Source: Pyrinomonadaceae bacterium
GTDB taxonomy: Bacteria > Acidobacteriota > Blastocatellia > Pyrinomonadales > Pyrinomonadaceae
Reading direction: 5' to 3'
Assembly: GCA_035942855.1 (NCBI GenBank)
Contig: DASZCS010000012.1
Coordinates: 33,198 to 97,197, forward strand
DNA: 64,000 nt
Every line of letters begins with the position of its first letter. Positions within the stretch are counted from its first letter, which is position 1. Below, piece after piece: positions 8,210 to 25,604 of this stretch. The notes beneath the pieces are model-generated. The model was not told the DNA's origin. It made no database searches and worked only from the letters and a program-made list of their open reading frames with translations. The position numbers were made by a program, and so were the translations under genes.

Positions 8210-8394
8210 CTAAAGACAAATGCGTGAGTTGGGCAAAAAGAGGCTTTGAATTCGACTTTTGAGCGAATTCGGCAGCAACGTTTAGCCGCTTGAAAACCTC
8301 AAAGATTGCGCCATCCGTTGCCGCCCGGTGCAGTTTAAATTCCCCTTTTGCTGCCCACACAAAAAGAGTCTTCTGAATCGCCTGTGAGAACGAG

Positions 8395-10488
8395 ATGAAG
8401 AGAATCATTCGCCGCGCGCGCAAAAGTTTCGTCGCCCTGCTCGTCCTGGCCTCTCTGTGCTTCGCCAATCTTGGCGGGCTGGCCGCGCGCGGGCAGTCTC
8501 TACAGGATGGGAAACGCGCCGGTGCGGCTAGAAAATCCGGCGCTGCCGTGTCGGGCAAGACGAAAACTCCCGGCCTGCCACTGACGAAATACAACGCGCG
8601 ACTCGAAAAACTCTCGCCCGACTTGGCCGATCAACTCGTCCGCTCCGTTAATCACAAGACACGCTTCCGCGTCATCTGCCGCTTCAACGCTCCGGCCGGG
8701 AGCGGCGTGCAGGAGGTCTACACGCGGCGCGGCGTGCGCGTCAATTACGCCTTTCAGGATTCGAGCTTCGTGAGCGCGGAGATGACCGCGAGGGACGCGC
8801 TTGATTTGACCCGGTTCGGCGAAATCTCCTACATCACGCCCGACCGCGAAGTGCGCACGCTCGGCCACGTCTCGGCGACGACCGGCGCAGACCTTGTGCG
8901 CGCACAGGCCACGGGTGGACTCGACGGCACGGGCATCGGCATCGCCGTGCTCGATTCGGGCATCAAGCGCAGCCACAAATCTTTCCGCGACGGACGCTCG
9001 ACCGATAGCGACGTGCGCGTCGTGGCTGAGAAGGATTTCTCCAACTACGGCAGCGCCGACGACTATTACGGCCACGGCACGCACGTCGCCTCGCTCGTCG
9101 CGGGCAACGGTCGCGTCGCCAGTGCTGCCTACGTCGGCATCGCGCCGAATGCCAACATCGTCAACCTGCGCGTGCTCGACAATGAAGGGCGCGGCTCCGT
9201 CTCGTCAGTCCTGCTCGCGCTCGATTGGGTGATGGCGAATCGCACGCTCTACAACATACGCGTCGTCAATATGAGCCTCGGCATGCCCGCCGTGGATTCT
9301 TACCGAAACGATCCCATCTGTCTCGCCGTCAGGCGTCTGGTTGACGCAGGGGTTGTCGTGGTGACGGCGGCGGGCAACAACGGCAAGACGGACGACGGGC
9401 AGAAAGTTTACGGGCAGATACACTCGCCCGGCATAGAGCCTTCGGCCATCACCGTGGGCGCGTCGAACACCTTCGGCACGAACGAGCGCACAGACGATGC
9501 TGTTGCCTCCTACAGTTCGCGCGGCCCCACGCGCGGCAGCTACGTGGACGCGGCGGGCGTGCGCCATTTCGACAATCTCGTCAAACCCGAACTCGTTGCC
9601 CCCGGCAACAAACTCGTCGGGGCGCAATCAGAGGGCGAGTGTCCCGCGAGCCAGGATGATTGCGGCGCGAAGAATTTCCTGCTCACGCAAAATCCGCAGA
9701 TGGAAGCGCATGTGAGCACGGACGACAGCCGCGCCATGATGTTTATGAGCGGCACTTCGATGGCTGCCCCGCAGGTGGCCGGTGCGGCCGCGCTGCTCCT
9801 GCAAGTCAATCCGCGTCTCACTCCGAATCTGATCAAGACGATCTTGATGTACACGGCGCAGCCCTTGAACAACTTCAACGCGTTCGAGCAGGGCGCGGGC
9901 GGGCTTAACATCGAAGGCGCAGTCCGCCTCGCCAAACTCGTCCGCCGCGACATCGGAAGCGGCTTGCCGCTCGGCGCGCCCCTGCTCACGGGCGCAGCGC
10001 CCACGCCGCGCACGACAATCGCCGGGCACACTTTCGACTGGGCGCAGGGCGTCGTCCTCAGTCACAGCTTCGCTACGGGACTCGACCTCATCACCGAATA
10101 CCAGCGCGTCTACGACCTCGGTGTGATCATCAGCGATGGTGTGATTATCAGCGACGGCGTCATCATCAGCGACGGCGTCATCATCAGTGACGGCCTGCGA
10201 CGAAATCCAGACTTTCTCAGCGACGGCGTGATCATCAGCGACCACATAAGGACGAGCGGCGGCAGTATGCTCGGCGACGGGACGCCTTACGTCGCCGTCG
10301 GCGTGATCATCAGCGACGGCGTGATCATCAGCGATGGGCTGTTGCGCGACGACGGGGTCATTATCAGCGACGGAGTGATTATCAGCGACGTGCTGTTGAA
10401 GTCTCTGGCGACGCTGGCCGACGGCGACCGCACGCGTTATGCACCCGTCGTTGTCGATACGGGCGCAGACTATCGAGGCTATTTCTGA
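8395..10488 (+). CDS. secreted subtilisin-like serine protease (peptidase S8) with a C-terminal GVIISD hexapeptide-repeat region
   Basis: Signal peptide (FVALLVLASLCFANLGG). Catalytic triad motifs: AVLDSGI (Asp), HGTHVASLVAG (His), GTSMAAPQVAGAAALL (Ser). Nine GVIISD units occur between 10120 and 10389. Confidence 0.9.
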   Translation: MKRIIRRARKSFVALLVLASLCFANLGGLAARGQSLQDGKRAGAARKSGAAVSGKTKTPGLPLTKYNARLEKLSPDLADQLVRSVNHKTRFRVICRFNAPAGSGVQEVYTRRGVRVNYAFQDSSFVSAEMTARDALDLTRFGEISYITPDREVRTLGHVSATTGADLVRAQATGGLDGTGIGIAVLDSGIKRSHKSFRDGRSTDSDVRVVAEKDFSNYGSADDYYGHGTHVASLVAGNGRVASAAYVGIAPNANIVNLRVLDNEGRGSVSSVLLALDWVMANRTLYNIRVVNMSLGMPAVDSYRNDPICLAVRRLVDAGVVVVTAAGNNGKTDDGQKVYGQIHSPGIEPSAITVGASNTFGTNERTDDAVASYSSRGPTRGSYVDAAGVRHFDNLVKPELVAPGNKLVGAQSEGECPASQDDCGAKNFLLTQNPQMEAHVSTDDSRAMMFMSGTSMAAPQVAGAAALLLQVNPRLTPNLIKTILMYTAQPLNNFNAFEQGAGGLNIEGAVRLAKLVRRDIGSGLPLGAPLLTGAAPTPRTTIAGHTFDWAQGVVLSHSFATGLDLITEYQRVYDLGVIISDGVIISDGVIISDGVIISDGLRRNPDFLSDGVIISDHIRTSGGSMLGDGTPYVAVGVIISDGVIISDGLLRDDGVIISDGVIISDVLLKSLATLADGDRTRYAPVVVDTGADYRGYF

Positions 10489-10644
10489 CGGCATGAGCGA
10501 CGCATACGCTGACAGAGTCTGCGCCCCCGGCACTCAGGACGTGCGCCCCCGAGATTCGCGTTGATGCGTTCTGCAAACTTGAAGTTGATGCCCTCGTAAG
10601 TTCCGTTAATATTGAAACTCCGATCCCTCGCCCGACATTCAGCC

Positions 10645-11556
10645 ATGTCTCAAACGCTTAACTCCTCACAGACCGCGCCGCCTCGCACGCACGCGCGCAC
10701 CTCGCGCGGAGGCCACATCTCTTCACCGCAACTGCTCGTTCGCGGCCAGGAGGCGGAGGCTCTGAACTTTCTGGCCGTGCGTCCGGTCGAGAACGTCATC
10801 ATGTCGAGCTTGATCCGCGACCACGGGTTCGAGCGCAGTTTGAACCGCGGCGATTTTTACGCGTGCCGCGATGCGAGCGGCGCGCTCACAGGTATCGCCC
10901 TGCTCGGTCATCACATACTTTTTGCGAGCGGGTGCAACGAGACGATCGAGGCGTTCGCGGCGGGAGCGCGCGAGCGTTGCGATGCACACGTCATACTGGG
11001 CGAGAGGGAAGCGGCCGGGCGTTTCTGGTCTGCTTATGCGCGCGCGGGCGAGTTGCCTCCGCTCGTGCAGCGGGAATTGTTGTTGGAGCAGCGTTGGCCT
11101 GTGGCGGTGCGCGAGTTTGTGCCGGGGTTGCGCGCGGCGACGCTCGCGGATTTGCCTGAGGTCGTGGAGGTGCACGCGCAGTTGGCTTGCGAAGAGAGTT
11201 CCGTTAACCCTCTGGAAGTTGACCCGGAAGGTTTTCGCGCGCGACTGGCGCGTCGCATCGAGGCGGGGCGTGTCTGGGTCTGGATCGAGCGCGGGCGTCT
11301 CGTCTTCAAGACGGACATCATTTCCGACACGCCCGAAGTGATCTATCTCGAAGGCGTTTACGTGAACGCGGACGAGCGCGGTAAGGGCTACGGGCTGCGC
11401 TGCCTGTCGCAACTGAGCCGCGAGTTGTTGAGGCGCGCGCATTCGCTCTGTCTGCTCGTCAACGAAACGAACGAGCGGGCGCAACTTTTCTATCGCCGCG
11501 CCGGTTACAAATTGCACAGCCGCTACGACACGATCTATCTCCCGCCGCGAACGTGA
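10645..11556 (+). CDS. GNAT-family N-acetyltransferase (about 300 aa, with an extra N-terminal domain)
   Basis: The C-terminal acetyl-CoA motif region reads VYVNADERGKGYGLRCLSQL..LLVNETNERAQLFYRRAGYKL. ATG at 10645 is preferred over the ORF-track TTG at 10612. Confidence 0.7.
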   Translation: MSQTLNSSQTAPPRTHARTSRGGHISSPQLLVRGQEAEALNFLAVRPVENVIMSSLIRDHGFERSLNRGDFYACRDASGALTGIALLGHHILFASGCNETIEAFAAGARERCDAHVILGEREAAGRFWSAYARAGELPPLVQRELLLEQRWPVAVREFVPGLRAATLADLPEVVEVHAQLACEESSVNPLEVDPEGFRARLARRIEAGRVWVWIERGRLVFKTDIISDTPEVIYLEGVYVNADERGKGYGLRCLSQLSRELLRRAHSLCLLVNETNERAQLFYRRAGYKLHSRYDTIYLPPRT

Positions 11557-11782
11557 AGCGCGTCTTCGGTCACACCCGGCGCGTGCGCCGGAAGTTGTAG
11601 TTTGTGATTTGAGAACGCAGCCACTATATTTAACCCACATCAACCGGCCGTCATTCTTGAAGGGCGTTTCCCGGCGACGCGTGAGCCGGAAGACGTGCCC
11701 GTGTTGACGGTTGCCCCGACTCGGTTCACCTGCAAAATGTTTCGAGACGTAAAAAAGTATCCGGCAGAGGCCGCCCGAAGCG

Positions 11783-14700
11783 ATGAGTAAGGAGAGAAGA
11801 GAGGCGGAATCCGGCGTCGCCAGCTTGAGCGAGGCGCGCGCACGCGTGCAGGGCGCGCGCGAGTCGCTTGAACGCGAACTGGAAGAGGTGCGCCTGCTGC
11901 TCGATCAAGGACTGACTTCCGAAGTCTTGAAGCGCGCGTCGGCGCTCGTGCGCGCGGCGCGACAGGATGCGACGCTCCTGGCGCGCGCGCGTTGCCTGCT
12001 CTCGGCGGCTTTGGAGATGCAGGGTCGTTACCGCGAATCGCTCGAAGCCGTGCAGATGTACGAGCAAGCGGAGGAACGCGCCAAGTGCGATACAACGTCT
12101 TCGATCTATCTCGGCGTTCAACTCGGACTTGCCTATAACTACACGGGCGATCATCCGAAGGCCATCGCGATCTTGAACGGTGCTTTGCGTGAAGCGACGG
12201 AGCATGGCGGCGGCGCACAGGCCGGTTCGGTCTACGTCGCTTTGGCGCGCGTCTATCGCACCATCAACGAGTACACCATCGCGCGCGACCACGCGCAAAA
12301 GGCGCTCGAACATTTTCGCGGCACGGGCGACTGGCGTGGCCTGGCCGAAGCCTATTTCGCCATCGCTCTGGCCGAGCTTTTCGAAGGCGACTACGAGCCT
12401 GCGCTGAACAATCTAGGGCACGCTTTGAAACTCGTTGGCGACCATCCAGCGCCCTACCTGCTCGGCAAAATCTACACGAACATGGCGGGCGTCTGCTGGT
12501 TTCTCAAACGCCCGCACGACGGCATCAAATATCTAGAGACGGCCATCAGCTACTACGAGCGCACCGAGCACAAGGCCAACGCGGCCGACGGCTACAACAA
12601 CCTCGGCATTCACCTGATCCTCGTCGGCGAATGGGATCGCGCGCAGGAAGCGCTCGAACGCGCTCTCGCGCTCGCTTCCGAAACGGACAAGCGCGGCGAG
12701 CAGACGATGATCCTCGATTCGCTCGGCGAGTTGTTGATGCTCAGGGGCGAACTGGAAGAGGCCGAAAAGTATCTGGAACGCGCCGTCGAACTGTCGCAGG
12801 AACACGGCAACAAGTGGTACGTCGGCCAAGCCCTGCGCACGCTCGGCCGCTGTCATCTGGCGTCGAACGATCTGGATCGAGCACTTGCACACGGCACGCG
12901 CGCGCTCGAATACGCCGAACGCATCGGCGACCGTCAGGCCGTCTGCGATTCGCGCCTGCTCCTCGGCGAGACGTATCTCAGGCGCGGCGACCTCGCCCGT
13001 TGCGAAGAACAACTCAATCCGGTGCTCGCCGAGACAGCCGACACTTCGGCCGACCTCGCCGTCTCAGGCGAAGCGCAACGCCTCCACGGTTTGCTCTCGC
13101 TCGCACGCGGCGACGCGTTGCTGGCCGCGCAACACTTCGGACGCAGCGTCTCGATCTACGAGATGCTCGGCGACCGCTATCGCAGCGCCCGCTCGCGCTA
13201 CGACTTGGGGCGCGCCTATGCCGACGCGCAGCCCGAACGCGCGCACGAATGTCTGACGCGCGCCGCCGAAACTTTTCGTCAACTCGGAGCGCGCCGCGAC
13301 ATCGCACAGGCCGAAGAAGCTCTCAGTGCGCTCGACCGAAGCGCCGTCGTCGAAGACCACTCGCACGCCGCGCAGCAGACGCGTCTGGACAACCTCACGC
13401 ACCTGATCCTGCTCAGACTGACCGAGGCCGTCGCTTCGCGCGAACTACTCCTGCGCGAACTCGCCGCCGTCATCTATCAGGAGACGGGCGCGCGCCGCAT
13501 CTTGATCGCGGAGGCGGACGAAGAAGGGCACGAGCGCACGGTCGTCGCACACGGCTGGACGGAAACGGAGAGCGTGGAACTGTTGGAGAAGTTGCTTCGT
13601 GCGGAAGGCGTGGAAGGGGAGAGACGCGTAGCCGTTGAGGCGGAAGCTGAGATCGTAGAACTACGTCCGCCGCACGCGCCGCACGCGCGGCTGCTCGTCT
13701 CGCCGCCGGGAGCGGCCAAACTTCCGGGCGGCTTTTCGCTCGACCCGCTGCTTGGCATGGTCGAACTCGGTCTGGACGTGTGTGCGTTTCGAGAGAAGGC
13801 GCGTGAAGGTTTCGACGGCGCGGAGCAATCCACGCTCGCCAGCCAGAGCTTCATGCCCGGCTTCATACATTCATCTCCGGCGATGACGCGGCTAGTTGAG
13901 GAAGTCCACAAAATCCGTTCATCGGACGTAACCGTCCTCGTGACGGGCGAGTCCGGCACGGGCAAAGAACTGGTCGCACGCGCCATCCACGCTCTCTCTT
14001 CGCGACGCGCCAAAGTCTTCGTTCCGTTCAACTGCACGGCAGTCCCTAAAGAGTTGTCGGACGCTTACCTGTTCGGCTATCGCAGGGGAGCATTCACGGG
14101 CGCGGTGTCCGACTCGCCGGGCGTGATTCGCTCGGCGGCGGGCGGCACTCTGTTCTTGGACGAGATTGGCGATCTTCCGCTCGACATCCAGCCGAAGCTG
14201 TTGCGCTTTTTGCAGGAGGGAGAGATACAACCACTGGGCGAGCAGCGCCCCGTGAAGGTTGACGTGCGGATCATCGCCGCCACCAACAGCGACCTCGAAG
14301 ATATGGTGCGCGACGGTCGTTTCCGAGAGGATTTGTATTATCGTCTGAACGTCATCCGCCTGCGTGTGCCGCCGCTTCGTGAGCGTCGTTCGGAAATCCC
14401 CACGCTCGTCAATCACTACATCGGCCACTATGCGCGGAAGTTTGGCCGCAGCGACATACGCATCACGCCGGAGACGATTGACCTTCTGATGGTCTGCGAC
14501 TGGCCGGGCAACATCCGACAACTCGTCAACGAAATTCAACGCATCATGGCGCGCGCCGAAGACGGCACGCTGATCACGCCCGAACACCTCTCGCCCGAAC
14601 TCAAACGCACCGCCCCGCCCGTCTCCACCACCAACACGAACCTCGCCGCGTTCGGTGCGCCCGCGCCGCAGTCGTCAGCGCAAGGGGGCGAAAATCTCTC

Positions 14701-14857
14701 ACTCCCGGACGCCGTCGAAGACCTCGAACGCCGCATGATCGCAGACGCCTTGCGCCGCCACAAAGGCAACATCTCGCGCGCCGCACGCGAACTCGGCATC
14801 ACGCGCCGCGGCCTCCAACTCAAACTCGGCCGCTACGCCATGAGCGCCACCTCCTGA
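11783..14857 (+). CDS. sigma-54-dependent transcriptional activator (bEBP) with a ~500-aa N-terminal TPR region
   Basis: AAA+ motifs: Walker A VTGESGTGKE, the sigma-54 contact loop GAFTGA, and Walker B LFLDEIGDL. C-terminal Fis-type HTH: ISRAARELGITRRGLQLKL. The N-terminus is TPR-like repeats. Confidence 0.9.
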   Translation: MSKERREAESGVASLSEARARVQGARESLERELEEVRLLLDQGLTSEVLKRASALVRAARQDATLLARARCLLSAALEMQGRYRESLEAVQMYEQAEERAKCDTTSSIYLGVQLGLAYNYTGDHPKAIAILNGALREATEHGGGAQAGSVYVALARVYRTINEYTIARDHAQKALEHFRGTGDWRGLAEAYFAIALAELFEGDYEPALNNLGHALKLVGDHPAPYLLGKIYTNMAGVCWFLKRPHDGIKYLETAISYYERTEHKANAADGYNNLGIHLILVGEWDRAQEALERALALASETDKRGEQTMILDSLGELLMLRGELEEAEKYLERAVELSQEHGNKWYVGQALRTLGRCHLASNDLDRALAHGTRALEYAERIGDRQAVCDSRLLLGETYLRRGDLARCEEQLNPVLAETADTSADLAVSGEAQRLHGLLSLARGDALLAAQHFGRSVSIYEMLGDRYRSARSRYDLGRAYADAQPERAHECLTRAAETFRQLGARRDIAQAEEALSALDRSAVVEDHSHAAQQTRLDNLTHLILLRLTEAVASRELLLRELAAVIYQETGARRILIAEADEEGHERTVVAHGWTETESVELLEKLLRAEGVEGERRVAVEAEAEIVELRPPHAPHARLLVSPPGAAKLPGGFSLDPLLGMVELGLDVCAFREKAREGFDGAEQSTLASQSFMPGFIHSSPAMTRLVEEVHKIRSSDVTVLVTGESGTGKELVARAIHALSSRRAKVFVPFNCTAVPKELSDAYLFGYRRGAFTGAVSDSPGVIRSAAGGTLFLDEIGDLPLDIQPKLLRFLQEGEIQPLGEQRPVKVDVRIIAATNSDLEDMVRDGRFREDLYYRLNVIRLRVPPLRERRSEIPTLVNHYIGHYARKFGRSDIRITPETIDLLMVCDWPGNIRQLVNEIQRIMARAEDGTLITPEHLSPELKRTAPPVSTTNTNLAAFGAPAPQSSAQGGENLSLPDAVEDLERRMIADALRRHKGNISRAARELGITRRGLQLKLGRYAMSATS

Positions 14858-14969
14858 GTTGAAACCTTTCCCCGATTCATTGCGTTATCAACATTGATCC
14901 GCCTCGCCTTTGTAATTCAACTACAAACGTTTCCCCATCCCTTACTTTGATAATTAAGGAGACCCCAAC

Positions 14970-15170
14970 GTGGAACATCCAGAAAAAGCCAAGACGGAAA
15001 CCTCGCACGACGACACGCCGCAAGGGAGCGAAACACCATTCTTCGCGCGCTTCCTCGAAGGTCAACACGCCGAAGCCAGACCGGCCGGAGCGAATGACGA
15101 AGCCGTTTTCATGACCCTCAAATACCCGTCCGACCGCGACGAGATAGACCGGCCGCTATCTCACGTCTAA
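14970..15170 (+). CDS. mdnA: microviridin-family graspetide precursor peptide (66 aa)
   Basis: GTG start with AAGGAG 8 nt upstream. Leader motif PFFARFL at aa 23-29 (15036-15056). Core TLKYPSDRDE at aa 49-58 (15114-15143) fits the microviridin TxKYPSDx[DE][DE] pattern. It sits directly upstream of two ATP-grasp genes. Confidence 0.85.
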   Translation: MEHPEKAKTETSHDDTPQGSETPFFARFLEGQHAEARPAGANDEAVFMTLKYPSDRDEIDRPLSHV

Positions 15171-15262
15171 CCGACCGGAGCGGCGGGCGCTGGCTCTCGA
15201 TCTTCTGCATTTCAAGAGGCCGGAACGTGCCCGTCGCATCGGACGCCCCGCGTGAGATGTTG

Positions 15263-15382
15263 ATTAAGAGCGTCTAACAAAACTGAGAGTGCAAACACGA
15301 AGCGACGCGAACAGCACGAAGCTTTTGTTCGTGTCATTTCGTGTCGCACGCGTTGTTTCATTGTTTCGTCAGACGCTCTTAA
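15263..15382. repeat. long imperfect palindrome (CACGAA family) between the precursor and ligase genes
   Basis: Perfect outer 12-bp arms TTAAGAGCGTCT (15263-15274) / AGACGCTCTTAA (15371-15382). The inner arms carry three CACGAA/CGCGAA units and three inverted TTCGTG-like units. Confidence 0.7.
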
Positions 15383-15430
15383 CGTCTATCGCGCAACTTC
15401 ACAGAACCTTTCCCGAATCCATATCTTTGT

Positions 15431-16426
15431 ATGCGGGCGAAGCCAGAGCCGGACACAGTTCTGCTGCTCACGCACAGCGGCGATTACTACACGGTGGATC
15501 GCGTCGCCGACGCGCTTCAGCGCCGCGGCGCGAAAACTTTTCGCTTCGACACTGATCGCTTCCCGCGCGAGGTGCGCATCGCCGCGTCTCTCTCCGTTGA
15601 GGGCGCGCTCAGCCACGTCATCGAAGACGGCGCGGCGACGTGCGACGCGACGACGGTGCGCGCGGTCTGGGCGCGCCGGATATGGACGCCGTCATTGGAC
15701 GAAAATCTCGACCCGAAATTTCGGCAGATGTGCCTGCGCGAGAGTGTCGCCGCGCTCGAAGCCTTTCTCGACGGGCTGCACGGAGCGCGCTGGATCAACG
15801 AACGCGGGCGCGAAGAAGAGGCCGGGAACAAACTGCTGCAACTGCGTCTCGCCGCCCGAACGGGCTTGCGCATCCCGCGCACGCTGCTGACAAACGATGC
15901 CGAGCGGGCGCGCGAATTCTTTCGCGCGAACGACGGCGCGCTCGTGGCAAAATTGCTCACGCCCGTCTCCAACGGCATGAACGCGGATTCGGCTTTCGTC
16001 TACACGAACGAAGTCAGCGCACGCGACCTGGAAGACGCGAGCGGACTCCGGCACAGCCCCATGGTGTTTCAGGAGCGCGTGCCGAAATCGCTCGAACTGC
16101 GCGTCGCTTATGTCGCGGGAAAATTCTTCGTCGGCGCGCTCGACGCGAGCGGCAGCATGCGCGGGCGAATCGATTGGCGGCGCGCAACGCCTGAAGAATG
16201 CAGTTGGCGGCGCGACGACATCCCGCCCGAACTCGGGGCGCAACTCACGACATTGATGCGCGAACTGCGACTCGTCTACGGGGCAATAGACATTATCCGC
16301 ACGCCTGAAGGCCAGCACATCTTTCTCGAAGTGAACCCCGGCGGCGAATGGGGCATGCTCGAACGCGACCTCGGACTCCCCATCGCCGACGCAATCGCCG
16401 ACGCGCTCCTCGACCAAAATTTATGA
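15431..16426 (+). CDS. mdnB: ATP-grasp RiPP macrocyclase, MdnB/MvdC-like (the B versus C assignment rests on gene order)
   Basis: N-terminus LLLTHSGDYYTVDRVADALQRRGAKTFRFDTDRFP is paralogous to the next gene. C-terminal ATP-grasp motifs: YGAIDIIRTPEGQHIFLEVNPGGEW. Its stop overlaps the next gene's start (ATGA). Confidence 0.8.
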   Translation: MRAKPEPDTVLLLTHSGDYYTVDRVADALQRRGAKTFRFDTDRFPREVRIAASLSVEGALSHVIEDGAATCDATTVRAVWARRIWTPSLDENLDPKFRQMCLRESVAALEAFLDGLHGARWINERGREEEAGNKLLQLRLAARTGLRIPRTLLTNDAERAREFFRANDGALVAKLLTPVSNGMNADSAFVYTNEVSARDLEDASGLRHSPMVFQERVPKSLELRVAYVAGKFFVGALDASGSMRGRIDWRRATPEECSWRRDDIPPELGAQLTTLMRELRLVYGAIDIIRTPEGQHIFLEVNPGGEWGMLERDLGLPIADAIADALLDQNL

Positions 16427-17412
16427 CCGTCCTCATCATCACTCACAGCCGTGATAACGAGAGCATAAGCCTTGTCGCTGAGGCTATCGAAAGGCGGGGC
16501 GGAAGTTCGTTCTGCTTCGACACGGACAGATTCCCGACAGCGGTTCAACTCGTCGCGCGCTACGGCGAGTTTCCCGAACAACTTTCATTTGCGGACGGCG
16601 GCGCGACGCTCGACCTGCGCGACGTGTCGTCCATCTGGCATCGCCGCCTTGATGTCGGCGGGCGTCTGCCCGACGGGATGGACGCCCAACTCCGTCACGC
16701 CTCGCTCGGCGAATCGCGCGCAACCGTCTTGGGGATGCTGGCGAGCCTCGACGCGTTTCGCATGGACGCCGAGCCTTTGATTCGTCGAGCTGAAAACAAG
16801 CAGTTGCAGATTCGTGTCGCGTGCGAATTGGGACTGGACACGCCGCGCACGCTTACCACCAACGACCCGGCGGCCGTGCGTGCCTTCGCGCGCACCTGCG
16901 AGCAGGGGATGATCGCAAAGATGCTCTCGTCCTTCGCCATCTACGAAGACGGAGCGGAGAAAGTCGTCTTCACCAACCCGGTCACGGCGGAAGACCTGGA
17001 CAACCTCGGCGGGCTGCGGCTCTGCCCGATGACTTTTCAGGAACAAGTCGCGAAGCGTCTGGAACTGCGCGCAACAATCGTCGGCGAGCGCGTGTTCACT
17101 GCCGCGATCGACTCGCAATCGTCAGCACGCGCTACGCACGATTGGCGGCGAGATGGTGAACGGCTGCTACGCGCGTGGCAACCCTACACGCTGCCGCCGG
17201 AGGTGGAAGAAAAATTGCTGCGCCTGATGGACTATTTTCAATTGAACTACGGCGCGGCCGACCTGATCGTGACGCCCGAAGGTCGCCACGTCTTTCTCGA
17301 AGTCAACCCTGCGGGCGAATTCTTCTGGCTCGAACGTCAACCGGGACTGCCCATCTCGGAAGCCATCGCCGATGTACTACTCGGCCGATCAAAGCGCAGG
17401 GAAAAAGGGTAA
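16423..17412 (+). CDS. mdnC: ATP-grasp RiPP macrocyclase, MdnC/MvdD-like
   Basis: ATG at 16423 gives MTVLIITHSRDNESISLVAEAIERRGGSSFCFDTDRFP. Further motifs: CPMTFQEQV and YGAADLIVTPEGRHVFLEVNPAGEFFWLE. The ORF-track start at 16348 only adds an Arg-rich out-of-context extension. Confidence 0.85.
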   Translation: MTVLIITHSRDNESISLVAEAIERRGGSSFCFDTDRFPTAVQLVARYGEFPEQLSFADGGATLDLRDVSSIWHRRLDVGGRLPDGMDAQLRHASLGESRATVLGMLASLDAFRMDAEPLIRRAENKQLQIRVACELGLDTPRTLTTNDPAAVRAFARTCEQGMIAKMLSSFAIYEDGAEKVVFTNPVTAEDLDNLGGLRLCPMTFQEQVAKRLELRATIVGERVFTAAIDSQSSARATHDWRRDGERLLRAWQPYTLPPEVEEKLLRLMDYFQLNYGAADLIVTPEGRHVFLEVNPAGEFFWLERQPGLPISEAIADVLLGRSKRREKG

Positions 17413-17419
17413 AGAAGAA

Positions 17420-17506
17420 GGGGAAAGAGAAAGGGGTAAAGGTAAAAGGTGAAGACAAAAAGGCTCTGGCTTTTCGTCATCCACCTTGCCCCTTACCCTT
17501 TTCCCC
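17420..17506. repeat. imperfect purine-rich palindrome between convergent genes; probable bidirectional terminator
   Basis: GGGGAAAGAGAAAGGGGTAAAGGTAAAAGGTGAAGACAAAAAGG pairs imperfectly with CTTTTCGTCATCCACCTTGCCCCTTACCCTTTTCCCC. The central stem is GACAAAAAG / CTTTTCGTC. Confidence 0.6.
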
Positions 17507-18057
17507 TATCGCGTGTTCTCGGCCAGTATGTTGCAGAAGAGTGCGCCCTGTTCGATGGCGTCGTCGAGGGCTTTGTGCGTGTGCGGCAGGTCGTCGAACC
17601 AATGGCGCGGCATGCTGGATTTGACGACGTGGCGGAAATCTTTTTTGAGGATCGCCATGGCGTAGGATTTGATGTCCAGCCCGATGAAAGAGAAGGGACT
17701 CTCGCCCGCGAACTGGTGTAGATACCACTGCACGAACATGTAATCGAAGACTACGGGGTAGGCGACGAAGATGGGGCGGCCGGGCAGAGCCTTGAGCCAC
17801 GCGACGTATTTCTTCATGGCATCGGCGGGCGTCTGCAAATCCGTGCGGCAAGCCGCCCAGGCCTCCGGCTGCGTCTTCCACCATTGCATCGTCTCCGGGT
17901 GACCGCTCGCGCCCGGCAGCGTTTCGAGATTGGCCGTGAACGTCGAGAGCAGAGTCTTGTCGGCCAGATAAGCGGCAGAGCCGACGCTGAGCATCGAGTG
18001 AGGGCCGGGGATCGGCCCGTCCGTCTCCACGTCGGTGCTCACGTAAATTTCCCTCAT
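17506..18057 (-). CDS. DEDDh-type 3'-5' exonuclease domain protein
   Basis: Exo I motif STDVETDG near the N-terminus and Exo III motif [10 protein letters not shown] near the C-terminus. Size is about 180 aa. Confidence 0.65.
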
Positions 18058-18104
18058 GTGATGTACCCTTAGAAAAAAAGATGAAGTAAGAACGATGGAC
18101 TAAA

Positions 18105-18187
18105 AAACGATGAAGTAGGAACGACGGAAGGATGAACGGAAAGCAATTGTCTTCCGTTCATCCTTCCGTCGTTCCTACTTCATCGTT
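18105..18187. repeat. perfect 36-bp-stem hairpin between two minus-strand genes
   Basis: AAACGATGAAGTAGGAACGACGGAAGGATGAACGGA (18105-18140) pairs with 18152-18187 around an 11-nt loop. A degenerate extra half-arm (AGATGAAGTAAGAACGATGGAC) lies at 18079-18100. Confidence 0.8.
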
Positions 18188-18193
18188 TCCAGT

Positions 18194-19450
18194 TTAGACT
18201 TCCGGCGTCGGCTTCTTCGTGCGCGAGGTGGCGGATTTAGAAGTGCCTTTGCGCGGCGCCGTGGTCTTCGGCGTCTTGGTTGAAGCAGAGCGCGCGGGCT
18301 TAGCGGGAGTAGCGGCGGTCGCTTCGGCATCGTCGCCGGTCGTCGAAGTACCGAGAATGTTGGAGACGGCGTTGGCCGCGTTCTCTACCAGGTCGGTGAC
18401 CCCCGCCGCGATGTCTGCGGCAAGCTCGCGCCCGGATTCCGGGATGATGCTGGAGACGGACTGCGGCGCGGCGGAGGCGGCTGCCGACATGGCCTGCGCC
18501 CCCGCCTCAATAGGGCGCGGGTCGAGCATCGCATCCCAGCGATACCGAACATCCCGTTGCGGCTCGCTCAAACGTTTGAAGACGAGATCGACGACCGCAT
18601 CCGTCACCCAGTTGTGATAGAACTCGCCGACCGAAGCCAGTTCGGCATCGGGCGCGGGGTTCATAAAGTCTATGGCGTAGGGAATGCCGTCTTTGATGGC
18701 GAACTCGACCGTGTTGATGTCGTAGCCGAGCGCGCGGCAGAGCGTACGCACGTCATTGCCGATGCGCTGCGCCAGTTCGGTCGAGAGGTAGTTCGGGTCT
18801 TGGATGTACTGCTCGCCCGACAGGTAAGGCTTGCGCGGGTCGTAGGGCATGATCATCACTTCTTCCTGCCCGATGCAGTAGCAGCGCACGAACTGGTCGA
18901 AGGCGATGAACTCTTGCAGCGTCATGCAGAGCGTGCCCGTCGTGTCGTAGACCTGCCAGAGTTCTTCGATGGTATTGACGCGCGAGACGTTCTTCCAGCC
19001 GCCGCCGTCGAAGGGCTTGATGATGGCGGGCATGCCGACGTAATCAACGATGCCTTGCCAGTCGAGCGGAAATTCGAGGTTGCGGAGGGATTCGCTCGTG
19101 ATGCCTTCGATGTAATCTTTCTGCGGCAGGAGCGCGGTCTTCGGGATGGCGACGCCGAGTTTGATCGCCAGAGAGTAGTTGAAAAATTTATCGTCGGCCG
19201 ACCACCAGAAGGGATTGTTGATGATCTGCGTGCCTTCGAGCGCACAGCGCTTGAGGAAGGCGCGATAGAAGGGAACTTCGTGCGAGATGCGGTCGATGAT
19301 GATGTCGTAGCGGCGTTCCTGGTCGAGACGGACGCCGCCGACCTCGACGTATTCGGCCGTCACCTCGCCCGCGCCGCGCGCGTTAATCCGGTCAATCAAT
19401 GCCTGCGGAAAAGTCTTCTCGCGGCCGACTAAAATACCAACAGTCTTCAC
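18194..19450 (-). CDS. ATP-grasp-fold protein (RimK/glutathione-synthetase-like) with a ~100-aa Ala/Thr/Pro/Lys-rich basic tail
   Basis: Central segment MPAIIKPFDGGGWKNVSRV resembles the ATP-grasp glycine-rich loop. Also EFAIKDGIPYAIDFMNPAPD. The tail reads TKTPKTTAPRKGTSKSATSRTKKPTPEV. The family call is from fold-level motifs only. Confidence 0.5.
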   Translation of the reverse strand: MKTVGILVGREKTFPQALIDRINARGAGEVTAEYVEVGGVRLDQERRYDIIIDRISHEVPFYRAFLKRCALEGTQIINNPFWWSADDKFFNYSLAIKLGVAIPKTALLPQKDYIEGITSESLRNLEFPLDWQGIVDYVGMPAIIKPFDGGGWKNVSRVNTIEELWQVYDTTGTLCMTLQEFIAFDQFVRCYCIGQEEVMIMPYDPRKPYLSGEQYIQDPNYLSTELAQRIGNDVRTLCRALGYDINTVEFAIKDGIPYAIDFMNPAPDAELASVGEFYHNWVTDAVVDLVFKRLSEPQRDVRYRWDAMLDPRPIEAGAQAMSAAASAAPQSVSSIIPESGRELAADIAAGVTDLVENAANAVSNILGTSTTGDDAEATAATPAKPARSASTKTPKTTAPRKGTSKSATSRTKKPTPEV

Positions 19451-21002: not shown

Positions 21003-22949
21003 TTGCCCGGCCTTCAACACTTAGAAGATTCGACGCTCCTTCACGCCCTCTCGCAAAGTTACCCGACGGCCGACGCGGCGCTGGCCGAAGCCGCAGCCCT
21101 GCGCGCCGCGCTCTCTCTGCCGAAAGGCGTCGTCCACGTCGTCAGCGACGTGCACGGCGAGTATAAAAAACTTCGTCACATCATCAACAACGCCTCAGGC
21201 AGTCTGCGCGCGCTCGTCTCCAAACTGTTCGACGGCAAACTGGACGAGACCGCCCAGCAGGAACTGCTCGCCGTCCTCTATTACCCGCGCGAGTTGATGG
21301 AGCACCTGCACGACCAACTGTCAGACCGCGAGGCGCGCGGCGAGTGGGTGCGGCAGACGCTCCGGCGGCAGTTCGAGATCGTGCGCGAACTGGCGCGCGG
21401 CGTGCGTCACCGGCAGGTGAGCGCGTTGATGCCCGCCGAGTATGCCGAACTGTTCGAGGAACTGCGCGACGAACCGGCCTCGGGGCGCGACCATGCCTAC
21501 GCGGACGCGATGATCGACGCGCTCGCCGCGCACAACCGGGATTTGCAGGCCGTACGCGCCGCTTCGCGTCTGGTGCGCAATCTGTCCGTGTCGGAGATCA
21601 TCGTGGCGGGCGACCTCGGCGACCGTGGCCCGCGCATCGACAAGGTGATCGATTACCTGTCGGAGCAACCGAACGTCTCTTTCACCTGGGGCAATCACGA
21701 CGTGCTGTGGATGGGCTCGTGTCTGGGACAGGAGGCGTTGATCGCGACCGTGCTGCGCGTCTCACTGCGCTACCGGCGTCTGTCGCAACTCGAAGAGGGC
21801 TACGGGCTGATCATCGCGCCGCTCGAACGTCTCGCACGCACCGTGTACGCGGGCGACCCCTGCGAGCGTTTCAAGACGAAGGGCACGGGCTTGCGCGACG
21901 ACCTGCTCATGGCGCGGATGCAGAAGGCGATCTCCATCATCCAGTTCAAACTCGAAGGGCAGACCATCCGACGCCATCCCGAATGGGACATGGAGCGCCG
22001 CAATCTCCTGCACCGCATCGACAAGGAGGGGCGCACGGTCGAAATCGACGGCCGCGTCCATCCCTTGCTCGACGCGCACCTGCCCACGCTCGACCCCGCA
22101 GACCCATACACGCTCTCGCCGGAGGAACGCGCATGCATGGATCGTCTGCGGCAGTCGTTCGTGTCGAGTTCGCGCCTGTGGCAGCAGATGTCTTACGTGA
22201 CGCGGCGCGGCGCAACGTGGCTCCGGCGCGATCTGGCTTTGATCTTCCACGGCTGCGTGCCCGTGGACGAGCGCGGGGAATTTCTCTCGCTTGAGGTTGA
22301 AGGCCGCGAGTACGCCGGGCGCGAGTTGTTCGACGCGCTCGACCGCGTGGTGCGCCGCGCGATGAACGCGGGCGCGGAGACGGTGGGCGACGAAGCAGAT
22401 TGGCTCTGGTATCTCTGGACGGGTGCGCGCTCGCCCCTGTTCGGCAAAGACCGCATGGCGACTTTCGAGAGCTATTTCGTCGAAGACAAAGAGGCGCGCA
22501 AAGAGCACAAGAATCCTTACTTCAAGTTGATCCACGACGCCGATTTCTGTCGGCGCGTGGCCGCCGATTTCGGCATCCCGGAGGACGCACTGATCGTCAA
22601 CGGCCACGTGCCCGTCAAGGTCGAGAAGGGCGAAGAACCCGTCAAGCAGGGCGGAAACGCCGTGACTATTGACGGCGCGTTTTCCGAAGCCTACGGCGAC
22701 CGGGGCTACACGCTCATCATCGCGCCCGAGCGGGTCGCCCTGGCCGAGCATCATCACTTTGAATCCATCTCGGATGCGATCACGGCCGGGGCGGACATCG
22801 TGCCGAAGGTGACGACCATTCGCGCGCGCACACGCCCGCGCCTCGTCGCGGATACGGAAGAGGGCGACGGGATACGTCGTCGCGTCGGCGCGCTCGAACG
22901 CTTGATCCTCGCCTACGAACGCGGCGAGTTGATGGAAAAGCAGAAGTGA
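21003..22949 (+). CDS. fbp: fructose-1,6-bisphosphatase class III
   Basis: About 648 aa with metallophosphoesterase motifs VVSDVHGEY, GDLGDRGP, WGNHDVLWMG, FHGCVPVDE and VNGHVPVK, collinear with Bacillus-type Fbp as I recall it. TTG start with AAGGAG 11 nt upstream. Confidence 0.85.
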   Translation: MPGLQHLEDSTLLHALSQSYPTADAALAEAAALRAALSLPKGVVHVVSDVHGEYKKLRHIINNASGSLRALVSKLFDGKLDETAQQELLAVLYYPRELMEHLHDQLSDREARGEWVRQTLRRQFEIVRELARGVRHRQVSALMPAEYAELFEELRDEPASGRDHAYADAMIDALAAHNRDLQAVRAASRLVRNLSVSEIIVAGDLGDRGPRIDKVIDYLSEQPNVSFTWGNHDVLWMGSCLGQEALIATVLRVSLRYRRLSQLEEGYGLIIAPLERLARTVYAGDPCERFKTKGTGLRDDLLMARMQKAISIIQFKLEGQTIRRHPEWDMERRNLLHRIDKEGRTVEIDGRVHPLLDAHLPTLDPADPYTLSPEERACMDRLRQSFVSSSRLWQQMSYVTRRGATWLRRDLALIFHGCVPVDERGEFLSLEVEGREYAGRELFDALDRVVRRAMNAGAETVGDEADWLWYLWTGARSPLFGKDRMATFESYFVEDKEARKEHKNPYFKLIHDADFCRRVAADFGIPEDALIVNGHVPVKVEKGEEPVKQGGNAVTIDGAFSEAYGDRGYTLIIAPERVALAEHHHFESISDAITAGADIVPKVTTIRARTRPRLVADTEEGDGIRRRVGALERLILAYERGELMEKQK

Positions 22950-23046
22950 GGGACGCGCAACGGGGCGTTCGCGTCGGCCTTTGAAAAAGTTCGTGAAGGT
23001 TTAACGTGGCGAGTTGAAGAAGGTCATAGACGTTTATTCAAGAACG

Positions 23047-23066
23047 TGTTAGTATCCCGCCGCTTC
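23047..23066 (+). promoter_or_regulatory. extended -10 promoter candidate TGtTAGTAT plus conserved CCCGCCGC discriminator, upstream of tkt
   Basis: TGTTAGTATCCCGCCGCTTC, with TAGACG 17 nt upstream as a possible -35. It implies a leader of about 290 nt before tkt. Confidence 0.35.
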
Positions 23067-23111
23067 ATCGGACGAAACCTAGTCTTAAAAAATCGCGTCC
23101 TGCTCTTTCAT

Positions 23112-23162
23112 CCTGATTCGCACCCTGATTTCGCACCCTGATTTCGGGCTGGATTTTCTGCC
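23112..23162 (+). repeat. tandem 12-13-nt direct repeats in the tkt leader
   Basis: CCTGATTCGCAC / CCTGATTTCGCAC / CCTGATTTCGGGC, followed by a degenerate TGGATTTTCTGCC. Confidence 0.7.
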
Positions 23163-23350
23163 CACACAAGATCCCGCGGTTTCCAAGTTCGATCTCTGAT
23201 AACAATCTTTCGACGACACGCGAAGCGAGTTTTATGAACACGCACGAGTAAACGCCCTTTTCCGCTTACAACTGCTAGAACTTTATGCGTTTGCGCCTCT
23301 TCCCTCGCAAGGACAGACGGTAGATCAAATCTGCAAGGAGTCAGCAACCA

Positions 23351-25587: not shown

Positions 25588-25604
25588 GCGACGAAGGAGC
25601 AAAC

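What the first reader, a model, noticed from the sequence alone, without database searches (positions are those of the whole stretch)
14970..17412. Microviridin-type graspetide (omega-ester/omega-amide RiPP) cluster in a sigma-54-containing, apparently non-cyanobacterial genome
Seen in the sequence: a 66-aa ORF (GTG, AAGGAG 8 nt upstream) reads MEHPEKAKTETSHDDTPQGSETPFFARFLEGQHAEARPAGANDEAVFMTLKYPSDRDEIDRPLSHV. PFFARFL is the conserved leader helix of microviridin precursors (MdnA/MvdE), the element recognised by the ATP-grasp ligases. TLKYPSDRDE fits the core pattern TxKYPSDx[DE][DE]. Two paralogous ~330-aa ATP-grasp genes follow, with an ATGA start/stop overlap, in the canonical mdnA-mdnB-mdnC order. 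Mapping the known tricyclic topology predicts esters Thr49-Asp55 and Ser54-Asp57 and an amide Lys51-Glu58. The family is known, mainly from cyanobacteria, with marinostatin-like relatives elsewhere. This member is uncharacterised and sits in a different context. The genome encodes a sigma-54 system, which cyanobacteria lack. There is no adjacent MdnD acetyltransferase or MdnE transporter, and a TPR-bEBP lies directly upstream. A precursor this short is easily missed by gene callers.
Basis: partly seen in the sequence, partly recalled or inferred. Interest (0 to 1): 0.88.

Follow-up and report, generated by a model that had tools for sequence, protein, structure and literature searches.

The report
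Microviridin-type protease-inhibitor peptide gene cluster
This is a real but ordinary three-gene cluster for a microviridin-type cage peptide (a serine-protease inhibitor) in a soil acidobacterium, and the public GenBank record already names all three genes this way.

Summary
It comprises a 66-aa GTG ORF (14970-15170) with AAGGAG 8 nt upstream, then two paralogous ATP-grasp genes (15431-16426 and 16423-17412) joined by an ATGA overlap.

All three pass curated family models:
- The precursor matches NF033738 and PF12559.
- Gene 2 matches the MvdC/MdnB equivalog.
- Gene 3 matches the MvdD/MdnC equivalog.

RimK-type models score far below cut-off. The genome is a Pyrinomonadaceae (Acidobacteriota) MAG. 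The precursor is conserved next to orthologous ligases, with an invariant PFFARFLEGQ leader and TLKYPSDRDE core under clear purifying selection.

The find is not new. The identical proteins are already in NCBI (HEV2799135-37) under exactly these names, and an antiSMASH "microviridin" region in a Pyrinomonadaceae MAG is already tabulated in a published supplement. Related clusters occur in at least six phyla.

The upstream TPR-bEBP is probably not the cluster's regulator. The only sigma-54 promoter lies upstream of a secreted S8 subtilase-GNAT module, which occurs widely without any mdn genes. mdnA has its own conserved upstream block. A conserved hairpin sits between mdnA and the ligase genes.

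Verdict: an uncharacterised member of a known family, of low interest.

The parts
14880..14969 (+). Conserved block upstream of mdnA (contains TTGATC at 14894-14899; TTGACC in orthologues) plus the ribosome-binding site AAGGAG at 14956-14961. This is the probable promoter region of mdnA; the promoter itself is not mapped.
   Evidence: Alignment of ten loci. The ~90-nt block stays next to mdnA in L001 and L005, where about 340 bp are inserted after the bEBP gene. The RBS and start position are conserved. The simple sigma-70 scan found no consensus promoter here, and no sigma-54 promoter was found.
14970..15170 (+). mdnA-type precursor peptide, 66 aa, GTG start. The leader recognition helix PFFARFL is residues 23-29 (nt 15036-15056). 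The core TLKYPSDRDE is residues 49-58 (nt 15114-15143). An 8-residue variable C-terminal tail follows (IDRPLSHV).
   Evidence: NF033738 41.7 bits (cut-off 26) and PF12559 34.5 bits (cut-off 21). Leader and core are invariant in all 120 best homologues. Substitutions in the core are synonymous only. The identical protein is HEV2799135.1, already named as a microviridin/marinostatin family inhibitor.
15264..15382 (+). Long hairpin in the 260-nt mdnA-mvdC spacer. Outer arms are 15264-15283 and 15363-15382; inner arms are 15295-15313 and 15326-15344. It is probably an RNA element that sets the precursor:enzyme expression ratio (inferred).
   Evidence: MFE -58.7 kcal/mol, z = -5.4; whole spacer z = -5.5. 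A 14-19-bp perfect hairpin sits at the same place in orthologues, with compensatory changes in L002. It occurs once per locus and is not a dispersed repeat. No Rfam family matches.
15431..16426 (+). mdnB/mvdC-type ATP-grasp ligase, 331 aa. It is predicted to form the Lys51-Glu58 omega-amide (lactam). No Shine-Dalgarno motif is seen upstream.
   Evidence: TIGR04185 MvdC equivalog 435.2 bits (cut-off 425); PF21068 1.3e-35. The best PDB match is 5IG8 (MdnB), E = 2.8e-102 over residues 4-327. In NCBI it is HEV2799136.1, named MvdC family maturase.
16423..17412 (+). mdnC/mvdD-type ATP-grasp ligase, 329 aa, translationally coupled to the previous gene by ATGA. It is predicted to form the two omega-esters Thr49-Asp55 and Ser54-Asp57.
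   Evidence: TIGR04184 MvdD equivalog 479.2 bits (cut-off 475). The best PDB match is 5IG9 (MdnC), E = 1.7e-111 over residues 1-322. In NCBI it is HEV2799137.1, named MvdD family maturase.
17417..17510 (.). Long imperfect hairpin between the convergent mvdD (+) and exonuclease (-) genes. It is the probable end of the mdnABC transcription unit.
   Evidence: MFE -37.8 kcal/mol, z = -2.2, which is only modestly better than shuffles. It was picked up on both strands by microRNA-precursor models, far below their gathering scores, which marks it as a generic palindrome.

Best explanation
This is a minimal, self-contained, class-I-like microviridin (group 1 graspetide) biosynthetic cluster, mdnA-mdnB-mdnC, in a Pyrinomonadaceae (Acidobacteriota) genome.

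**Shown here**
- The three genes are full-length members of the precursor, MvdC and MvdD families.
- The leader (PFFARFLEGQ) and core (TLKYPSDRDE) are under strong purifying selection.

**Inferred from the characterised Microcystis and Planktothrix systems**
- The 66-aa precursor is made in excess. It has a strong RBS, and a conserved hairpin precedes the ligase genes, which lack a Shine-Dalgarno motif.
- The leader helix PFFARFL docks on the ATP-grasp ligases.
- The MvdD-type enzyme uses ATP to form the two lactones Thr49-Asp55 and Ser54-Asp57.
- The MvdC-type enzyme then forms the lactam Lys51-Glu58.
- A protease encoded elsewhere removes the leader. There is no double-glycine motif, and the window holds no C39-ABC transporter or M1 peptidase. 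The conserved LEGQ resembles the LEEQ cleavage motif of class I precursors.
- The product is a tricyclic cage peptide that acts as a substrate-like serine-protease inhibitor. Leu50 would occupy the S1 pocket, which predicts elastase- or subtilisin-type targets.
- Expression most likely comes from the cluster's own promoter in the conserved block upstream of mdnA, not from the neighbouring sigma-54 system.
For: - **Family models.** Scores lie above the curated cut-offs for all three genes.
- **Solved structures.** The best matches are MdnB and MdnC.
- **Conserved precursor.** It lies upstream of orthologous ligases in L001-L009, L059 and L060, with the RBS at the same distance.
- **Leader and core.** All 120 best homologues carry the leader motif and a [TS]LKYPSDRDE core.
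- **Selection.** 9 of 10 core codons vary only synonymously.
- **Independent occurrence.** mdn clusters occur without the bEBP or S8 genes in more distant Blastocatellia. The S8-GNAT module occurs without mdn genes.
- **Regulation.** No sigma-54 promoter with 2 or fewer mismatches lies upstream of mdnA. The conserved upstream block stays with mdnA when 340 bp are inserted after the bEBP gene.
- **Spacer hairpin.** It is conserved in the mdnA-mvdC spacer.
- **Literature.** The PFFARFL helix is needed by both ligases. Position 5, between Thr and Lys, sits in S1, and Leu at that position gives elastase and subtilisin inhibition (PMC7823629). Class definitions and the LEEQ/NosP processing are described in PMC13039773.
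- **Public annotation.** The NCBI records give the same assignment.
Against: - No chemistry was observed. Ring topology, leader cleavage site, the fate of the 8-residue C-terminal tail and the target protease are all inferred by homology.
- The equivalog scores are only just above cut-off (435.2 vs 425; 479.2 vs 475).
- No leader peptidase, acetyltransferase of the MdnD type or exporter was found in the 64-kb window. Maturation and export are therefore unexplained.
- The promoter is not mapped, and the simple sigma-70 scan found none upstream of mdnA.
- The hairpin could act at the DNA level, or be a terminator remnant, rather than a stoichiometry device.
Confidence: 0.9

Rival explanations
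1. The cluster is under sigma-54 control. The TPR-bEBP directly upstream activates mdnABC, giving a regulatory context unknown for microviridins.
For: The bEBP gene ends 112 nt before mdnA on the same strand, with no terminator-like site between them. The adjacency holds in all close relatives. Read-through from the sigma-54 promoter at 8194-8209 is not excluded.
Against: - No -24/-12 element with 2 or fewer mismatches lies anywhere between 14858 and 15430.
- The single perfect sigma-54 promoter in the window is upstream of the S8 subtilase. It is conserved there in L059 and L060.
- More distant acidobacterial mdn clusters have no bEBP upstream.
- The synteny in close relatives extends equally to housekeeping genes (FBPase, transketolase), so it says little about function.
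- In L001 and L005 about 340 bp separate the bEBP gene from the conserved mdnA upstream block.
Confidence: 0.12
2. The peptide is the dedicated partner of the co-located secreted S8 subtilase (8395-10488). It would act as an endogenous inhibitor or antidote, co-inherited with its protease.
For: - The S8 gene lies 4.5 kb upstream on the same strand.
- Leu at P1 is associated with subtilisin inhibition in microviridin variants (PMC7823629).
- The core is invariant across the clade, including the positions that vary in cyanobacteria. This suggests one fixed target.
Against: - The S8-GNAT pair occurs on at least seven contigs with 7 kb or more of downstream sequence and no mdn genes.
- mdn clusters with the same core occur without any S8 gene in the available flanks. 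These reach only ~4.5 kb upstream of mdnA in most loci and 10 kb in L061.
- The subtilase has a signal peptide. The peptide has no export signal, and no transporter is encoded nearby.
- The two units have different upstream control regions.
Confidence: 0.07
3. The product is only bicyclic and marinostatin-like, with two esters. The MvdC-type enzyme would be inactive or would act elsewhere.
For: The core ends in D-E, with Asp at the third acidic position as in marinostatin (YPSDSDE; own knowledge). Bicyclic microviridins are known and active (PMC7823629).
Against: Lys51 is invariant. A full-length MvdC equivalog is present, translationally coupled to its partner and 75-81% conserved in relatives. 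Marinostatin-type clusters characteristically lack this enzyme (PMC7823629).
Confidence: 0.08
4. The two enzymes are ordinary RimK/GshB-type ATP-grasp ligases and the small ORF is fortuitous.
For: There is a weak RimK Pfam hit on gene 2 (24.9 bits).
Against: RimK family scores are 42 and 34.9 bits against a cut-off of 143.4. The MvdC and MvdD models score 435 and 479. The MvdD pre-ATP-grasp domain PF21068 matches at about 1e-36 in both. The small ORF is conserved, selected and HMM-positive.
Confidence: 0.01

Closest known systems
Microviridin clusters of Microcystis (mdnA-E) and Planktothrix (mvdA-F); class I microviridins
   Same: - Single-core precursor with a PFFARFL leader helix and a TxKYPSDx(D/E)(D/E) core.
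- Gene order is precursor, amide ligase (MdnB/MvdC), then ester ligase (MdnC/MvdD).
- The ligases match the solved MdnB and MdnC structures over their full length (E = 1e-102 and 1e-111).
- No double-glycine motif.
- A LEGQ motif after the leader helix resembles the LEEQ processing motif.
   Different: - The host is an acidobacterium (Pyrinomonadaceae).
- There is no MdnD-type acetyltransferase and no MdnE-type ABC transporter in the cluster.
- The third acidic residue is Asp (D57), where microviridins typically have Glu.
- An 8-residue variable C-terminal tail replaces the usual one or two aromatic residues.
- The whole 10-residue core is invariant across the clade, rather than variable at the x positions.
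Marinostatin (Alteromonas) and related bicyclic members of PF12559/NF033738
   Same: Same precursor family, same leader motif, a YPSDxDE-type core ending, and a non-cyanobacterial host.
   Different: Marinostatin has Arg in place of the ring-forming Lys and lacks the amide ligase, so it has two rings only. Here Lys51 and a full MvdC equivalog are present.
Class II and III microviridin-like clusters (AMdnA of Anabaena, chryseoviridin/CdnC, chitinoviridins, FR901451, myxomiditides)
   Same: ATP-grasp ligases of the same superfamily; 7MGV (CdnC) and 7M4S (AMdnB) are the next-best PDB matches. Close relatives of this very clade include two-core precursors (L008 and 63 of the 120 best homologues).
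   Different: Those systems have multiple cores or longer cores, double-glycine motifs, C39-ABC/HlyD export genes, or extra ligases. The window's cluster has one core, no GG motif and no export genes. Multi-core acidobacterial relatives (L012, L014, L016) do carry an ABC transporter (the L012 member annotated).

Membership tests
Microviridin/marinostatin precursor family (NF033738; Pfam PF12559 Inhibitor_I10) | Precursor scores above the curated cut-off of the family models | tested here: met
   NF033738 41.7 bits (cut-off 26); PF12559 34.5 bits (cut-off 21)
Microviridin/marinostatin precursor family (NF033738; Pfam PF12559 Inhibitor_I10) | Leader contains the PFFARFL recognition helix | tested here: met
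   Residues 23-29 read PFFARFL. The motif is invariant in 57 of 57 single-core homologues and present in all 120 best hits.
Microviridin/marinostatin precursor family (NF033738; Pfam PF12559 Inhibitor_I10) | Core motif TxKYPSDx(D/E)(D/E) with Thr, Ser, Lys and three acidic ring-forming residues | tested here: met
   T49-L-K51-Y-P-S54-D55-R-D57-E58. All six residues are invariant in homologues.
Tricyclic microviridin biosynthetic cluster (mdnABC / mvdCDE) | Adjacent MvdD/MdnC-type ester-forming ATP-grasp ligase | tested here: met
   TIGR04184 479.2 bits (cut-off 475), full length; 5IG9 E = 1.7e-111
Tricyclic microviridin biosynthetic cluster (mdnABC / mvdCDE) | Adjacent MvdC/MdnB-type amide-forming ATP-grasp ligase | tested here: met
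   TIGR04185 435.2 bits (cut-off 425), full length; 5IG8 E = 2.8e-102
Tricyclic microviridin biosynthetic cluster (mdnABC / mvdCDE) | Two omega-esters and one omega-amide are actually installed (-54 Da), and the product inhibits serine proteases | not testable with these tools
   This requires co-expression, mass spectrometry and enzyme assays.
Tricyclic microviridin biosynthetic cluster (mdnABC / mvdCDE) | Accessory MdnD-type GNAT N-acetyltransferase in the cluster (frequent, not obligatory) | tested here: not met
   The only nearby GNAT (10612-11556) is separated from mdnA by the 3-kb bEBP gene. It forms a conserved pair with the S8 subtilase on contigs without mdn genes. It has no homologue within the flanks of the other mdn loci. 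It was not compared directly with an MdnD sequence.
Tricyclic microviridin biosynthetic cluster (mdnABC / mvdCDE) | Accessory MdnE-type ABC transporter (with or without a C39 domain) | tested here: not met
   Pfam scan of all large ORFs of the window found only a SufC-like ATPase (43708-44487) and a distant MacB/FtsX-type protein (55697-57916).
Class I microviridin precursors (classification of Ahmed et al. 2017 as summarised in PMC13039773) | A leader fused to a single core, with no double-glycine processing motif | tested here: met
   There is one core and no GG in the 66 residues.
Marinostatin-type bicyclic subgroup | No ring-forming Lys and no amide ligase | tested here: not met
   Lys51 and an MvdC equivalog are present.
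   TIGR00768 scores 42 and 34.9 bits against a cut-off of 143.4.
Sigma-54-dependent transcription unit | A -24/-12 promoter (TGGCAC-N5-TTGCW) upstream of the first gene | tested here: not met
   No match with 2 or fewer mismatches lies between 14858 and 15430. The only exact match in the window is at 8194-8209, upstream of the S8 gene.

The most novel reading that the evidence does not exclude
In Pyrinomonadaceae this microviridin may not be an arms-race defence metabolite. It may instead be a fixed-sequence physiological protease regulator. The whole core TLKYPSDRDE, including the positions that vary in cyanobacteria, is invariant across more than 100 soil sequences.

In this clade the cluster lies next to a sigma-54/TPR-bEBP-controlled secreted subtilase. 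The peptide could be that protease's cognate inhibitor or antidote, and the two could be switched on together.
Probability: 0.07. Interest if true: 0.55.

Novelty: new member of a known kind. Interest (0 to 1): 0.2.

Why it matters
No microviridin from Acidobacteriota appears to have been isolated. The library searches for graspetides or microviridins together with Acidobacteria returned only catalogue-level mentions. The predicted tricyclic peptide with core TLKYPSDRDE would therefore be a new congener, from an abundant and hard-to-culture soil family. Its three-gene cluster is small enough for direct heterologous expression.

The strict invariance of the core across the clade hints at a single conserved protease target, which is a modest ecological question.

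Beyond that, the finding adds nothing conceptually. The family, its enzymology, its presence outside cyanobacteria and the annotation of these very genes are all already public.

Tried and rejected
1. **Sigma-54 promoter upstream of mdnA or mvdC.** None was found with up to 2 mismatches. A TGGC...TGCA in the spacer has the wrong spacing (read directly).
2. **GNAT 10612-11556 as an MdnD equivalent.** Rejected, because it travels with the S8 subtilase on contigs that lack mdn genes. It has only generic RimI-like hits.
3. **Leader peptidase or exporter in the window.** No M1 peptidase, C39-ABC or HlyD gene was found.
4. **Rfam search of 7500-18500.** It gave only sub-threshold microRNA-precursor hits on both strands of two palindromes (17418-17508 and 18105-18189). 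Nothing matched the mdnA-mvdC spacer.
5. **Direct repeat AACCTTTCCCCGATTCAT (14863) / AACCTTTCCCGAATCCAT (15405) as a shared operator.** It is not conserved in the orthologous spacers.
6. **Spacer hairpin as a canonical intrinsic terminator.** The U-tract after the stem is not conserved. The two terminator-like sites flagged inside it are no more than shuffles give.
7. **Sigma-70 promoter upstream of mdnA.** The conserved TTGAC(C) has no consensus -10 at 16-18 nt, so the promoter is left unmapped.
8. **PADLOC scan of the neighbours.** Only generic domain hits were found.
9. **Other precursor copies in the window.** A motif scan of all six frames found only the one.
Full report
**Observation**

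The ORF list and the raw sequence confirm the finding as written.
- A 66-aa ORF runs from 14970 to 15170 on the + strand. It starts with GTG and is preceded by AAGGAG (14956-14961) with an 8-nt spacer.
- Its translation is MEHPEKAKTETSHDDTPQGSETPFFARFLEGQHAEARPAGANDEAVFMTLKYPSDRDEIDRPLSHV.
- After a 260-nt spacer come two ATP-grasp genes, 15431-16426 (331 aa) and 16423-17412 (329 aa). Their stop and start overlap in ATGA.
- The two proteins are 42% identical.
- The longest ORF of the second gene begins at 16348. The alignment to the solved MdnC structure starts at the Met of 16423, MTVLI....

**What the three genes are**

- The small protein passes both curated precursor models. NCBIfam NF033738 [quoted passage not shown] scores 41.7 bits against a cut-off of 26. 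Pfam PF12559 scores 34.5 against 21.
- Gene 2 passes the MvdC equivalog TIGR04185 (435.2 bits, cut-off 425). Gene 3 passes the MvdD equivalog TIGR04184 (479.2 bits, cut-off 475). Each scores far lower on the other's model.
- Both score far below cut-off on RimK (42 and 34.9 bits against 143.4).
- Against solved structures, gene 2 matches MdnB best (5IG8, E = 2.8e-102). Gene 3 matches MdnC best (5IG9, E = 1.7e-111). Both alignments are full length.
- The order is therefore precursor, amide ligase, ester ligase, which is the canonical mdnA-mdnB-mdnC.

**Host and relatives**

- A scan of one genome per species with the MvdD-type protein returned 58 loci.
- The nine closest (75-83% identity) are all Pyrinomonadaceae MAGs (Acidobacteriota, Blastocatellia).
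- Other Blastocatellia and Acidobacteriota follow at 63-67%.
- Cyanobacteria lie at 62-64%, Planctomycetota at 55-59%, Myxococcota at 42-58% and Bacteroidota at 46-53%. "Candidatus Eisenbacteria" is also represented.
- A rough neighbour-joining tree places a broad acidobacterial group (one Nostoc sequence nests within it) next to the main cyanobacterial group, and the other phyla are only partly coherent (no support values).
- The window is 60.9% G+C. It carries bEBP genes and a perfect -24/-12 promoter, so the non-cyanobacterial origin is confirmed.

**Conservation of the precursor**

- A six-frame motif scan found a precursor-like ORF next to the ligases in almost every locus.
- In L001-L007 and L009 the ORF starts at the same position with ATG, behind TAAGGAG at the same distance. 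This supports the GTG start in the window.
- A database search with the peptide found 560 homologues at E of 1e-3 or better.
- All 120 best hits carry a PFFxx[FYL]L leader and a core that reads TLKYPSDRDE (171 copies) or SLKYPSDRDE (12 copies). Of these, 57 have one core and 63 have two.
- In the single-core set, residues 23-30 (PFFARFLE) and 49-58 are invariant and the flanking 21, 22, 31 and 32 (E, T, G, Q) nearly so, whereas the N-terminus, the linker and the C-terminal tail vary.
- At the DNA level, 9 of the 10 core codons vary at the third position among 20 copies, with no amino-acid change apart from one T to S. This is a translated ORF under strong purifying selection.

**Already public**

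- The identical three proteins are in NCBI with consecutive accessions on a 293,447-nt Pyrinomonadaceae contig.
  - HEV2799135.1 is named [quoted passage not shown].
  - HEV2799136.1 is named "MvdC family ATP-grasp ribosomal peptide maturase".
  - HEV2799137.1 is named "MvdD family ATP-grasp ribosomal peptide maturase".
- Many relatives carry the same name. The precursor was therefore not missed by the gene caller.
- A published survey of Atacama soil MAGs lists an antiSMASH "microviridin" region in a Pyrinomonadaceae MAG in its supplementary table (PMC11520301).
- Reviews already state that microviridin clusters occur in Bacteroidetes and Proteobacteria (PMC7823629).
- Recent work adds Myxococcota (PMC12848669).
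- I found no paper that characterises an acidobacterial microviridin.

**Context: what does and does not belong to the cluster**

Upstream, on the same strand, the window carries the following:
- a perfect sigma-54 promoter, TGGCACGATGGTTGCA, at 8194-8209 (the only exact match in the window; 0.07 expected by chance);
- a secreted S8 subtilase at 8395-10488, with a signal peptide and C-terminal GVIISD repeats;
- a 314-aa protein with a C-terminal GNAT domain at 10612-11556;
- the 1024-aa TPR-bEBP at 11783-14857.

The promoter is conserved upstream of the S8 gene in L059 and L060. The arrangement from the GNAT gene to FBPase (S8 too wherever the flank reaches it) is seen throughout the close clade. 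That synteny extends just as well into housekeeping genes such as FBPase and transketolase. It therefore reflects relatedness rather than function.

Three observations separate the modules.
- A metagenome scan with the GNAT protein found the S8-GNAT pair on about 30 contigs at 31-82% identity. Several have 7 kb or more of downstream sequence, yet no TPR-bEBP lies directly downstream and no mdn genes are present (L067, L074, L076, L077, L079, L085, L093). The GNAT therefore belongs with the subtilase and is not an MdnD.
- More distant acidobacterial mdn clusters (L010, L012-L016, L019, L021, L023, L045, L061) have no bEBP upstream.
- No sigma-54 promoter with up to 2 mismatches lies between the bEBP stop codon and the ligase genes.

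A roughly 90-nt block upstream of mdnA (14880-14969, containing TTGATC/TTGACC) is conserved. It stays attached to mdnA in L001 and L005, where about 340 bp are inserted after the bEBP gene.

The most economical reading is that the bEBP serves the S8-GNAT promoter and that mdnABC has its own promoter. That promoter is not mapped. Read-through is not excluded.

No M1 peptidase, C39-ABC transporter or HlyD gene is present in the 64 kb. Multi-core relatives such as L012, L014 and L016 do carry a shared ~740-aa ABC-type transporter (Pfam ABC_tran in the L012 member). A HlyD-type gene was found only in L015, L018, L025 and L030.

**Expression anatomy**

- mdnA has a strong Shine-Dalgarno sequence. 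mvdC has none in the 20 nt before its ATG, and mvdD is translationally coupled to mvdC.
- The 260-nt spacer folds far better than shuffled sequence (z = -5.5). The fold is dominated by a long hairpin at 15264-15382 (z = -5.4).
- At the same place the orthologues have a perfect hairpin of 14 bp or more, GTTAAGGACATCCCG-N4-CGGGATGTCCTTAAC. L002 has a fully compensated 19-bp variant. L009 has the same stem around a different 6-nt loop, and L005 a one-base variant of it.
- The element occurs once per locus, and no Rfam family matches it.
- The U-tract after it is not conserved, so it is not a canonical intrinsic terminator.
- I infer that it is an RNA element that stabilises the precursor message or attenuates read-through, giving an excess of precursor over enzyme, as is common in RiPP operons (own knowledge). 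This is untested.
- A long imperfect palindrome at 17417-17510 between the convergent mvdD and exonuclease genes probably ends the unit (z = -2.2).

**Mechanism (by homology)**

- The PFFARFL helix of the leader is required by both ligases (PMC7823629).
- By analogy with MdnC and MdnB, the MvdD-type enzyme would first form the lactones Thr49-Asp55 and Ser54-Asp57. The MvdC-type enzyme would then form the lactam Lys51-Glu58.
- The precursor has a single core and no double-glycine motif, so it is class-I-like (definitions in PMC13039773).
- The conserved LEGQ after the helix resembles the LEEQ motif after which the M1-type protease NosP cleaves class I precursors. A comparable enzyme would have to be encoded elsewhere in the genome.
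- The residue between Thr and Lys occupies the S1 pocket, and Leu there favours elastase and subtilisin inhibition. Leu50 therefore predicts such targets.

**Differences from characterised microviridins**

- Asp rather than Glu at the second ester acceptor, as in marinostatin.
- A variable 8-residue C-terminal tail.
- No acetyltransferase or transporter in the cluster.
- Invariance of the whole core across the clade.

**Verdict**

However, the object is a routine, already-annotated member of a well-studied RiPP family that is widespread outside cyanobacteria. The sigma-54/TPR-bEBP context is most likely coincidental neighbourhood.

The residual interest has three parts:
- the product would be an uncharacterised congener from an under-explored phylum;
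- the invariant core suggests a fixed target;
- there is a low-probability possibility of a functional link to the neighbouring sigma-54-controlled subtilase.

Noticed in passing
window 8194-8209 (+), 8395-10488 (+), 10612-11556 (+): A perfect sigma-54 promoter, TGGCACGATGGTTGCA, is the only exact match in the window (0.07 expected). It lies about 186 nt upstream of a secreted S8 subtilase, which is followed by a 314-aa GNAT-domain protein. The promoter is conserved in L059 and L060. The S8-GNAT gene pair recurs on about 30 soil metagenome contigs at 31-82% identity, so it is a conserved two-gene module of unknown purpose.
   Followed up: partly
window 10119-10390 (+): The C-terminus of the S8 subtilase is built from tandem 18-nt units that encode repeated GVIISD hexapeptides, about 15 copies in two blocks. 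No family was assigned to this repeat.
   Followed up: no
window 18194-19450 (-): A 418-aa protein has only a weak RimK-like ATP-grasp signal (34 bits against a cut-off of 143) and a low-complexity Ala/Thr/Lys-rich tail. It is 83-88% conserved in all close relatives and has no Pfam family. It is a third ATP-grasp-like gene two genes downstream of the cluster, on the opposite strand.
   Followed up: no
window 17506-18057 (-): A 183-aa DEDDh-type exonuclease-like protein (Rv2179c-like, just below the Pfam cut-off) matches a PADLOC "Effector exonuclease" model at 3.8e-32. It is convergent with mvdD and about 90% conserved in relatives.
   Followed up: no
window 18105-18189: A strong palindrome lies between the exonuclease and the ATP-grasp-like gene. 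Several microRNA-precursor models pick it up on both strands, all far below their gathering scores. It is probably a terminator-type hairpin.
   Followed up: no
L001 about 4150-4500 and L005 about 395-730: An insertion of about 340 bp lies between the bEBP stop codon and the conserved mdnA upstream block. The sequence is alignable between these two loci and absent from the other eight. Its nature was not examined; it could be a mobile element remnant or a small RNA.
   Followed up: no
L008 1057-1284; L061 10001-10306 and 10649-10858; 63 of the 120 best homologues: Within the same acidobacterial clade the number of cores per precursor switches between one and two, and some loci have two precursor genes. 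All retain the same TLKYPSDRDE core.
   Followed up: partly
window 14863-14880 and 15405-15422 (+): A direct repeat, AACCTTTCCCCGATTCAT / AACCTTTCCCGAATCCAT, lies just after the bEBP stop codon and just before the mvdC start. It is not conserved in the orthologous spacers, so it is probably chance.
   Followed up: partly
window 21003-35366 (+): A long same-strand run of carbohydrate genes: Firmicute-type FBPase, transketolase, a 955-aa transaldolase-PGI fusion, 6-phosphogluconate dehydrogenase, G6PDH with its OpcA assembly protein, glucokinase, 6-phosphogluconolactonase and RpiB.
   Followed up: no
window 1412-3433 (-): A second TPR-rich regulator, 673 aa, with TPR repeats plus a C-terminal receiver domain. 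TPR-containing signalling proteins seem common in this genome.
   Followed up: no
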